Source of the DNA: a virus
Lineage: Duplodnaviria; Caudoviricetes
Virus record (IMG/VR): IMGVR_UViG_3300028048_000054
Length of the DNA: 64,000 nucleotides
Strand: one strand, 5' to 3'
Shown: positions 51,309 through 51,578 of the stretch, piece after piece
Position numbering within the stretch: the stretch's first letter is position 1
How the letters are laid out: each line of letters begins with the position of its first letter
Position numbers and translations under genes: made by a program
Notes under the pieces: generated by a model
What the model was told of the DNA's origin: nothing
Databases searched by the model: none
What the model saw: the letters and a program-made list of their open reading frames with translations, nothing else

Positions 51309-51458
51309 CCTGGTCGATTAGGATTTGCACCTAATAGTTTCCGTGAGTCCGACTTTCTTGTTACATACGGATGTTTTTGTTTATCACTACTCAGGCCACT
51401 CTCGCAGACACCTTTCAAATAAACAGACTCATACACTTTATCTTTTCCGACACGCCAG
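51309..51458 (-). ncRNA. tRNA-like RNA with enlarged central domain
   Basis: Acceptor-like CTGGCG/CGACCAG, T-arm ATTAGG-TGCAAAT-CCTAAT, helix TGAGTCTG/CGGACTCA. Confidence 0.5.
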
Positions 51459-51465
51459 ATATTAC

Positions 51466-51578
51466 TTAACTCGGTAAGGATTTGCACCTTACATTGTGGT
51501 ATTATCGATATACCCTGGTGTTTCACGTCCACCAGCCAACTTCTCTTTCAAGCCTTCTACCTATTCAGCCACGAGTTA
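51466..51578 (-). ncRNA. tRNA-like RNA with anticodon arm replaced by two hairpins
   Basis: TAACTCG/CGAGTTA acceptor, D-like arm, T-arm GTAAGG-TGCAAAT-CCTTAC. Confidence 0.6.

What the first reader, a model, noticed from the sequence alone, without database searches (positions are those of the whole stretch)
51309..51578. Tandem enlarged tRNA mimics lacking an anticodon arm
Seen: two adjacent elements (113 and ~150 nt), each with an acceptor-like stem and the same T-arm type (TAGG/TAAGG-TGCAAAT-CCTA/CCTTA), but with the anticodon arm replaced by multi-hairpin domains. Neither has CCA or a tmRNA-like Ala acceptor. Inference: tRNA-elbow scaffolds presenting a cargo domain, acting as decoys or Ro60 clients.
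Basis: partly seen in the sequence, partly recalled or inferred. Interest (0 to 1): 0.7.

Follow-up and report, generated by a model that had tools for sequence, protein, structure and literature searches.

The report
Anticodon-less tRNA-shaped phage RNA pair
Two neighbouring genes in a large uncultured phage's tRNA cluster encode RNAs that keep the folded upper body of a leucine tRNA but carry unrelated folded inserts where the codon-reading arm should be. They belong to a big, uncatalogued phage RNA family, also present in the model phage SPP1, whose job is unknown and which does not depend on the nearby Ro60 gene.

Summary
On the minus strand, 4 nt after an ORF and 9 nt before tRNA-Gln, lie two tandem tRNA-like genes: E1 (51578-51467, 112 nt) and E2 (51459-51309, 151 nt). 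Each has a 7-bp acceptor stem and a 6-bp T stem with the loop UGCAAAU. Neither has an anticodon arm or an encoded CCA.

A covariance model built from 33 unrelated viral contigs scores E1 at 70 bits and E2 at 33.6 bits. The same model finds members in Bacillus phage SPP1 (75 bits) and Leuconostoc phage LN34 (84 bits). Rfam has no match.

The closest described relatives are the stable RNAs of unknown function in phages T5 (RNA1) and T4 (RNAC, RNAD). The "scaffold presenting a cargo domain" reading fits the family's fixed frame and hypervariable middle.

The Ro60-client reading is not supported. About 1 Mb of family-bearing viral loci hold no TROVE gene. Only 1-2 of 80 TROVE loci hold a member. 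E1 and E2 lack the Ro-type terminal stem that another RNA in this island has.

Function, expression and processing remain inferred. This scan has already met the family many times on other DNA.

The parts
51467..51578 (-). E1: 112-nt anticodon-less tRNA-Leu-shaped RNA gene (whole element)
   Evidence: Covariance model R1 gives 70 bits, E 1.2e-15, with full-length alignment. The fold constrained to the scaffold is -28.1 kcal/mol against an MFE of -29.1.
51572..51578 (-). E1 acceptor 5' strand UAACUCG; pairs with 51467-51473 (CGAGUUA), 7 of 7
   Evidence: Sequence; R1 alignment.
51551..51571 (-). E1 U8-G9 and the Leu-type D arm GCUGAAUAGGUAGAAGGC (A14, A15, G18 and G19 kept)
   Evidence: Aligns to the family consensus GUGGCGGAAUAGGUAGACGC.
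51493..51550 (-). E1 insert (58 nt). It holds a 16-nt linker, hairpin A at 51515-51535 (6 bp, 9-nt loop), hairpin B at 51498-51514 (5 bp, loop AUCGAUA), and ACAAU, whose last U sits at the position of U48.
   Evidence: Single-sequence folds. No homologue was found, so the structure is a prediction only.
51474..51492 (-). E1 T arm: 6-bp stem GUAAGG/CCUUAC, loop UGCAAAU
51309..51459 (-). E2: 151-nt divergent member of the same family (whole element)
   Evidence: R1 gives 33.6 bits, E 2.4e-6, full length, with a 34-nt insertion in the D loop.
51453..51459 (-). E2 acceptor 5' strand UCUGGCG; pairs with 51309-51316 (CGaCCAGG, one bulged A)
51336..51452 (-). E2 D-like region plus middle domain. Two competing folds: a D stem UCG/CGA with a 43-nt loop (-24.7 kcal/mol), or a long-range helix UGAGUC/GACUCA enclosing the centre (-29.8 kcal/mol).
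   Evidence: Unresolved without orthologues.
51317..51335 (-). E2 T arm: 6-bp stem AUUAGG/CCUAAU, loop UGCAAAU
51226..51299 (-). tRNA-Gln(UUG) with encoded CCA, 9 nt downstream of E2: the same tightly packed unit
   Evidence: ARAGORN and Rfam.
51583..51870 (-). 95-aa ORF of unknown function, whose stop codon lies 4 nt before E1. No terminator is predicted between them.

Best explanation
E1 and E2 are genes for stable, non-decoding RNAs of a large phage family derived from a class II (leucine) tRNA.

They are probably transcribed with the surrounding tRNA operon. Because they keep a 7-bp acceptor stem, a D/T-loop elbow and a coaxial acceptor/T helix, the tRNA-processing machinery probably cuts them out: RNase P at the 5' end and trimming at the 3' end. 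The frame supplies precise processing, nuclease resistance and an L shape.

The working part is the structured insert shown where the anticodon and variable arms would be. It differs between E1 and E2 and between phages, and it presumably binds a protein or RNA partner. This would be a natural counterpart of the engineered "tRNA scaffold".

Shown here: family membership, conservation and covariation of the frame, absence of an anticodon arm, and independence from Ro60.

Inferred: expression, processing, stability, and that the insert is the effector. The target is unknown.
For: - Membership: a covariance model built only from unrelated IMG/VR contigs scores E1 at 70 bits (E 1e-15) and E2 at 33.6 bits (E 2e-6).
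- The family is real. The exact T-arm 17-mer hits at least 118 viral contigs, and ARAGORN calls a tRNA at only 1 of 119 matches.
- 81 of 114 distinct hits have the Leu-type D-arm motif upstream. At the position fixed by that motif, 62 of 81 show 7 of 7 acceptor pairs and 13 show 6 of 7. A shifted control has a mode of 2 of 7.
- All 7 acceptor pairs, one D-stem pair and two T-stem pairs change on both sides. 98.9% of cells are paired, against 30-45% when partners are slid.
- Nucleotides that make tRNA tertiary contacts are invariant: U8, A14, A15, G18, G19, the U before the T stem, and the T loop.
- Inserts run from about 30 to 200 nt and do not align.
- Genes are packed at tRNA-like spacing: 4, 7 and 9 nt. 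No terminator is predicted inside the unit.
- Members occur in SPP1 (75 bits) and Leuconostoc phage LN34 (84 bits), unannotated in both.
- T5 RNA1 is annotated "tRNA-like stable RNA with unknown functions". It aligns with the same acceptor, Leu-type D arm, big insert and T arm (25.8 bits).
- Engineered tRNA scaffolds with the anticodon arm replaced are processed and stable in E. coli (PMC3753655).
Against: - There are no expression or end-mapping data for this phage.
- No orthologue of either insert was found, so the insert structures rest on single-sequence folds. E2's fold is no better than shuffles (z = -0.04).
- E2 has a bulged acceptor, lacks G19 and has an ambiguous D region, so it could be decaying.
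- My acceptor search helped select the model's seed sequences. One search is the check that avoids this bias.
- A role for the frame alone, as a processing site, would also explain free variation of the inserts.
Confidence: 0.6

Rival explanations
1. Ro60 clients or Y RNAs: E1 and E2 dock on the phage's TROVE/Ro60 protein (55444-57078) as Y RNAs or as favoured substrates.
For: A TROVE-domain gene lies about 4 kb upstream in the same RNA island (Pfam PF05731, E 2.5e-7; 45% identical to Bacillus phage G gp540). Bacterial Y RNAs (YrlA) contain tRNA-like domains (PMC4201824). One TROVE locus, L191, has a 71-bit member about 550 nt upstream of its TROVE gene.
Against: - No TROVE gene was found in about 1 Mb of 118 family-bearing viral loci.
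- Named phages with the T arm (Listeria, Enterococcus, Lactobacillus, Leuconostoc, SPP1) do not overlap the main genera listed among the TROVE-bearing phages, though 8 further genus names there were not shown.
- Only 1-2 of 80 TROVE loci hold a member, and Bacillus phage G has none within 15 kb.
- E1 and E2 lack GNCGAAN0-1G, lack the permuted T-AS-D order, and have open rather than looped acceptors.
- Their flanks allow only about 2 extra pairs.
- A tRNA-Phe-like RNA at 54807-54928 does carry a long two-part terminal stem.
Confidence: 0.1
2. Chargeable leucine acceptors: after CCA addition, LeuRS leucylates the RNAs, since it does not read the anticodon. They would then act as a non-ribosomal Leu donor or as a LeuRS / charged-tRNA decoy.
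For: The first 26 nt are essentially a tRNA-Leu 5' part. A15, the U at position 48, and G18 and G19 are conserved. E1 has discriminator A. The phage's own tRNA-Leu scores 23.6 bits on the model. That bacterial LeuRS ignores the anticodon and uses A73 and the tertiary core is established knowledge, not tested here.
Against: - The discriminator is A in only 41 of 71 members (U 21, C 5, G 4).
- None of the 71 encodes CCA.
- E2 has discriminator U and lacks G19.
- The 6-bp T stem gives a 13-bp acceptor/T helix and G55 replaces U55. Both are unusual for elongator tRNAs: 20 of 592 ARAGORN tRNAs have a UGC loop.
Confidence: 0.12
3. The frame is the function: these are tRNA-like "punctuation" sites that RNase P cuts to define or stabilise the ends of neighbouring mRNAs, and the inserts are neutral filler.
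For: E1 starts 4 nt after an ORF. Across the family, 10-13 of 74 downstream neighbours are terminase or HNH packaging genes and 4 upstream neighbours are DUF722, so members often sit at the head of late operons. The SPP1 member lies inside the late head operon.
Against: Ordinary tRNAs in this island would already serve that purpose. It does not explain tandem copies, inserts of 100-200 nt, or the conserved non-canonical T loop and 6-bp T stem.
Confidence: 0.12
4. Relics: tRNA-Leu pseudogenes disrupted by insertions, no longer functional (most plausible for E2).
For: E2 scores half as high as E1, has a bulged acceptor, has no G19, and its fold is no better than shuffles.
Against: The frame is kept intact, with compensatory changes, in about 90 distinct members. 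E1 is a near-consensus member. The T arms of both are perfect 6-bp helices.
Confidence: 0.05
5. Intron-containing tRNA genes that splice to ordinary tRNAs, or a protein-coding stretch (81-aa ORF 51287-51532).
For: None beyond the tRNA-like ends. An 81-aa GTG-start ORF exists.
Against: - The inserts run from the D arm straight to the T arm, so excision would leave no anticodon stem-loop.
- No group I intron or any other Rfam family matches at E up to 10.
- 58- and 115-nt inserts are too small for group I introns (general knowledge).
- The ORF overlaps tRNA-Gln and has no Pfam match.
Confidence: 0.02

Closest known systems
Phage T5 RNA1 (NC_005859 30501-30644, misc_RNA "tRNA-like stable RNA with unknown functions"); also T5 RNA2 and RNA3
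   Same: It sits in a phage tRNA cluster interleaved with HNH endonuclease genes. It has a 7-bp acceptor, a Leu-type D arm (GCCGGAAUUGGUAGACGG), a large insert instead of the anticodon arm, and a T arm next to the acceptor 3' strand. It aligns full length to my model (25.8 bits).
   Different: T5 RNA1 has a canonical UUCAACU T loop and a 5-bp T stem, and a much lower score than true members (70-84 bits). It is best seen as a parallel or distant relative, not a family member.
Phage T4 RNAC and RNAD (species 1 and 2 stable RNAs)
   Same: Two tandem stable RNAs (139 and 119 nt) lie directly beside a tRNA in the tRNA cluster. RNAC ends in a T arm plus an acceptor-like stem. Their function is still unknown (PMC9697503; PMC3014915).
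   Different: There is no hit to the model. RNAC has a canonical GGUUCGAAUCC T loop, RNAD ends in an encoded CCA, and neither has a Leu-type D arm.
Class II tRNA-Leu (Rfam tRNA, RF00005), including this phage's own tRNA-Leu(UAG) at 49131-49213
   Same: It shares the acceptor, U8, the 3-bp D stem with a GGAAUAGGUAGAC-type loop, and the A15 / U48 positions. The phage's tRNA-Leu even shares the G55 T loop (GGUGCAACUCC) and scores 23.6 bits.
   Different: E1 and E2 have no anticodon stem-loop and no variable arm, and their T stem is 6 bp. ARAGORN and Rfam do not call them.
YrlA / bacterial Y RNAs (Chen et al. 2014, PMC4201824)
   Same: They are non-decoding RNAs with a tRNA-like D/T elbow. Some are cut by RNase P. 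They occur in phages and are encoded near Ro60.
   Different: YrlA is circularly permuted: 5' Ro motif, V, T arm, closed acceptor hairpin, D arm. Its ends form the Ro60-binding stem. E1 and E2 have open acceptors, a closed middle and no Ro motif.
Engineered "tRNA scaffold" for recombinant RNA (Ponchon and Dardel; PMC3753655)
   Same: It keeps the acceptor, T and D arms and replaces the anticodon stem-loop with an arbitrary structured RNA. The frame gives processing and protection.
   Different: It is man-made. It is an analogy for the mechanism, not a relative.

Membership tests
   E1 scores 70 bits (E 1.2e-15) and E2 33.6 bits (E 2.4e-6). The next hit in the window is the real tRNA-Leu at 23.6 bits.
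   E1 has 7 of 7 pairs. E2 has 7 pairs with one bulged A.
   Both elements have it.
   E1 meets it (GCUGAAUAGGUAGAAGGC, one stem pair shifted). E2 has UCGGAAAAGAUA..., with A in place of G19 and either a 43-nt D loop or no D stem.
tRNA (Rfam RF00005 / ARAGORN) | 5-bp anticodon stem with a 7-nt loop (U33, anticodon, R37) and a score above the gathering threshold | tested here: not met
   No call by ARAGORN. No Rfam tRNA hit, even at E up to 10.
YrlA / Y RNA | 5' motif GNCGAAN0-1G and a terminal stem formed by the 5' and 3' ends that binds Ro60 | tested here: not met
   The motif is absent from 51300-51585. The flanks extend the acceptor by at most 2 pairs.
YrlA / Y RNA | Permuted order T arm, closed acceptor hairpin, D arm | tested here: not met
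   The order is acceptor 5' strand, D, insert, T, acceptor 3' strand. The definition is from PMC4201824.
YrlA / Y RNA | Physical binding to Ro60 | not testable with these tools
   This needs co-immunoprecipitation. Co-occurrence argues against it.
tmRNA | G3:U70 alanine identity, a tag reading frame, and an ARAGORN or Rfam call | tested here: not met
   Pair 3-70 is A-U in E1 and U-A in E2. No tmRNA is called.
tRNA gene with a group I intron | Intron core matching Rfam group I, inserted in an anticodon loop flanked by anticodon-stem halves | tested here: not met
   No Rfam hit at E up to 10. There are no anticodon-stem halves.

The most novel reading that the evidence does not exclude
The family is a natural display platform. 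Phages mount exchangeable aptamer-like RNA modules on a tRNA-Leu frame that the host's own tRNA machinery processes and protects. The modules bind and neutralise, or redirect, host proteins such as defence or RNA-turnover factors. In this phage, E1 and E2 would be two such effectors within an 11-kb RNA island that also holds Ro60, Y-like RNAs and an RNA-repair enzyme.
Probability: 0.25. Interest if true: 0.8.

Novelty: new variant of a known kind. Interest (0 to 1): 0.58.

Why it matters
tRNA-like stable RNAs of phage tRNA clusters (T4 RNAC and RNAD, T5 RNA1-3) have had no known function for about fifty years.

This pair belongs to a much larger group with a sharply defined frame: Leu-type D arm, 6-bp T stem and UGCAAAU loop. 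The group is absent from Rfam and unannotated in GenBank phage records, including SPP1 and dairy and Listeria phages.

That gives the old question a tractable entry point. Members sit in genetically workable phages. The fixed frame makes them easy to find. The swappable middle suggests a general way for phages to express stable effector RNAs.

For annotation, these loci are currently either left blank or covered by spurious ORFs. Examples are SPP1 "gene 10" and B025 gp64.

Tried and rejected
- Near or distant DNA relatives of the 415-nt region in 50,697 phage records: only the tRNA-Gln matched.
- TROVE-guided search of IMG/VR: no relative.
The contigs of the closest TROVE homologues (P0002-P0007, 72-82% identity) could not be fetched, so orthologues of E1 and E2 and covariation in their inserts remain untested.
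- The metagenome scan gave 80 TROVE loci at 48-60% identity, but only L191 (and perhaps L137) carries a member.
- blastn-short of the two inserts against all fetched loci and against the window: chance-level matches only. There is no shared module and no antisense target.
- Rfam at the gathering threshold on the window and on 14 family-bearing loci, and at E up to 10 on the region: nothing.
- Literature searches for an anticodon-less or Leu-like phage tRNA mimic found no description of this family.
- No whole genome is held for this window.
- Rejected readings: tRNA with an intron, tmRNA, protein-coding (see the rival explanations).

Full report
**What is there**

The window is phage-like, with all long ORFs and all 21 ARAGORN tRNAs on the minus strand. 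It encodes a TROVE/Ro60-type protein at 55444-57078 (Pfam PF05731). That protein is 45% identical to gp540 of Bacillus phage G, which also sits in a tRNA cluster. The window also encodes a polynucleotide kinase-phosphatase/RNA ligase fusion.

The finding lies on the minus strand between a 95-aa ORF and tRNA-Gln. Read 5' to 3', the order is:
- the ORF's stop codon
- 4 nt
- E1 (51578-51467, 112 nt)
- 7 nt
- E2 (51459-51309, 151 nt)
- 9 nt
- tRNA-Gln

**Checking the observation**

Both elements have a 7-bp acceptor-type helix abutting a 6-bp T stem with the loop UGCAAAU. E2's acceptor has one bulged A.

The 11-mer GGTGCAAATCC occurs exactly at these two places. With one mismatch allowed there are 7 sites, against 0.7 expected.

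ARAGORN calls no tRNA or tmRNA here. Rfam gives nothing at E up to 10. There is no encoded CCA and no G3:U70 pair.

**They belong to a large family**

ARAGORN called a tRNA at only 1 of 119 matches.

By eye and by script, most of these share one architecture:
- a 7-nt acceptor strand
- UG
- GCGGAAUAGGUAGACGC
- a 30- to 200-nt stretch that does not align
- (A)UCAUG-UAAGG-UGCAAAU-CCUUA-C
- the complementary acceptor strand
- no CCA

This gave 89 distinct members of 80-248 nt.

Because my script had looked for pairing, I ran a test that does not depend on that search. I took the 7 nt fixed by the D-arm motif. Of 81 cases, 62 pair 7 of 7 and 13 pair 6 of 7 with the 7 nt after the T stem. A control taken 9 nt upstream has a mode of 2 of 7.

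On a 33-sequence alignment:
- every acceptor pair, one D-stem pair and two T-stem pairs, including the extra sixth one, change on both sides;
- 98.9% of cells are paired, against 30-45% when partners are slid;
- the invariant nucleotides are those that build the tRNA core: U8, A14, A15, G18, G19, the U just before the T stem (the place of U48, partner of A15 in tRNA-Leu), and the T loop.

**Membership of E1 and E2**

A covariance model built from those 33 sequences did not include the window. It scores as follows:

| Target | Bits | E-value |
|---|---|---|
| E1 | 70 | 1e-15 |
| E2 | 33.6 | 2e-6 |
| The phage's own tRNA-Leu(UAG) | 23.6 | 0.00091 |

E1 is a near-consensus member. E2 is divergent. 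It has A in place of G19, and either a 43-nt D loop or no D stem. It has two competing folds, and its overall folding energy is no better than that of shuffled sequence.

**Where else the family occurs**

The same model finds unannotated members in:
- Bacillus phage SPP1 at 6647-6755, 75 bits, between genes 9 and 11 under a doubtful "gene 10";
- Leuconostoc phage LN34, 84 bits;
- Listeria phage B025 and an Enterococcus herellevirus, as long forms that the model splits in two.

Rfam has no family for these loci. My literature searches found no description.

This scan has met the family many times on other DNA. I reached the family and the T4 parallel before reading those notes. I then verified their SPP1 and T5 RNA1 leads myself.

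**Closest described things**

T5 RNA1 is annotated "tRNA-like stable RNA with unknown functions". It aligns full length with an acceptor, a Leu-type D arm, a big insert and a T arm. However, it has a canonical UUC T loop and a 5-bp T stem, and it scores only 25.8 bits.

T4 RNAC and RNAD are two tandem stable RNAs (139 and 119 nt) beside tRNA-Arg. The arrangement is strikingly similar, but they do not match the model. Their roles are still unknown (PMC9697503; PMC3014915).

**Ro60**

YrlA-type Y RNAs are defined by three things: a 5' GNCGAAN0-1G motif, a terminal Ro-binding stem, and a permuted order of T arm, closed acceptor hairpin and D arm (PMC4201824). E1 and E2 meet none of these.

Co-occurrence also argues against a link:
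- No TROVE gene was found in about 1 Mb of 118 family-bearing viral loci.
- Among 80 metagenomic loci encoding 48-60% identical TROVE proteins, only L191 has a clear member (71 bits), and perhaps L137 has one too.
- Phage G has none within 15 kb of its TROVE gene.

Within this same island, a tRNA-Phe-shaped RNA at 54807-54928 does carry a long two-part stem formed by its ends. It is a far better candidate partner for Ro60.

**Other readings**

*Intron-bearing tRNA.* Excising the insert would leave no anticodon arm, and no group I core is detected.

*Leucine acceptor.* This is attractive because LeuRS ignores the anticodon (established knowledge). However, the discriminator is A in only 41 of 71 members, and none encodes CCA.

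Missing CCA is not diagnostic by itself. At least seven tRNAs of this phage encode CCA and at least five do not.

*Frame-only punctuation.* About 10-13 of 74 downstream neighbours are terminase or HNH genes, and some upstream neighbours are DUF722 late regulators. This gives the reading some support. It does not explain tandem copies or the special T arm.

*Protein coding.* The only ORF overlaps tRNA-Gln and has no family match.

**Most likely mechanism**

E1 and E2 are probably co-transcribed with the tRNA operon. No terminator is predicted between the ORF and tRNA-Gln. The strongest promoter match in the scanned region, a 12 of 12 consensus match, lies downstream at 51137-51109 and serves the next unit.

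The tRNA-processing enzymes probably cut them out, and the tRNA-like core probably stabilises them. They would act through their inserts, as engineered tRNA scaffolds do (PMC3753655).

Membership and frame conservation are shown. Expression, processing and the role of the insert are inferred. The target is unknown.

**Limits**

The nearest relatives of this phage could therefore not be examined, and the insert structures are single-sequence predictions.

Noticed in passing
window 51013-51100 (-), promoter 51137-51109 (-): An 88-nt class II tRNA-like gene missed by ARAGORN and Rfam. It has acceptor GGAAGAU/GUCUUCC, loop CUUGAAA (anticodon UGA, Ser-type), a long variable hairpin, T loop UGCAAGU and an encoded GCCA. 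A perfect TTGACA-17-TATAAT promoter lies directly upstream.
   Followed up: partly
window 50233-50315 (-): An 83-nt tRNA-like gene that no tool called. It has acceptor GCCAGGU/ACCUGGC, anticodon-like arm GCGGU-CCGCAAA-ACCGU (GCA, with C33), an extra arm, T loop UGUAAAU and an encoded CCA.
   Followed up: no
window 49131-49213, 55210-55291, 51013-51100 (-): This phage's tRNA-Leu, its tRNA-Tyr and the uncalled Ser-like tRNA all have U54-G55-C56 T loops. That loop type is rare among ordinary tRNAs in all fetched loci: 20 of 592, and only 2 of 72 tRNA-Leu.
   Followed up: partly
window 54807-54928 (-): A tRNA-Phe(GAA) cloverleaf is embedded in a long two-part terminal stem (8 bp, an internal loop, then 9 bp), about 500 nt downstream of the TROVE gene. 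It is a Y-RNA-like candidate partner for Ro60.
   Followed up: partly
window 54700-54800 (-): Another RNA-like stretch has a D-loop-like GCUGAAUAGGAAC, a T arm UGGG-UGCAAGU-CCCA and an acceptor-like GGUAGUGG/CCUCUACC. It has no anticodon arm. Its fold is not better than shuffles.
   Followed up: no
window 48238-48323 (-): A 5' half resembling tRNA-Leu (GUGGUGGAACUGGUAGACGC) without a T arm (model R1, 17.7 bits). It may be a tRNA fragment.
   Followed up: no
window 51845-52408 (-) and 11138-13345 (-): A pyruvoyl-dependent arginine decarboxylase gene (PF01862, E 2e-61) sits inside the tRNA island. A 735-aa kinase-phosphatase-RNA ligase fusion (tRNA-repair type) lies about 40 kb away in the window.
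   Followed up: no
L191:1590-1760 (+): In a 3.7-kb metagenome contig, a tRNA-like gene with a canonical T loop and an insert of about 70 nt lies directly upstream of a TROVE gene. It follows a family member at 1205-1303 and an ordinary-looking tRNA.
   Followed up: no
L205 (SPP1) 6647-6755; L202 (Listeria phage B025) about 2340-2521; L203 (Leuconostoc phage LN34) 2433-2528: Family members in named phages are unannotated or overlain by doubtful ORFs (SPP1 gene 10, B025 gp64). Across the family, downstream neighbours are enriched for terminase and HNH packaging genes.
   Followed up: partly
window 51498-51514 (-): The loop of E1 hairpin B contains the 6-nt palindrome AUCGAU. It could allow kissing-loop dimerisation, or it may be chance.
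   Followed up: no
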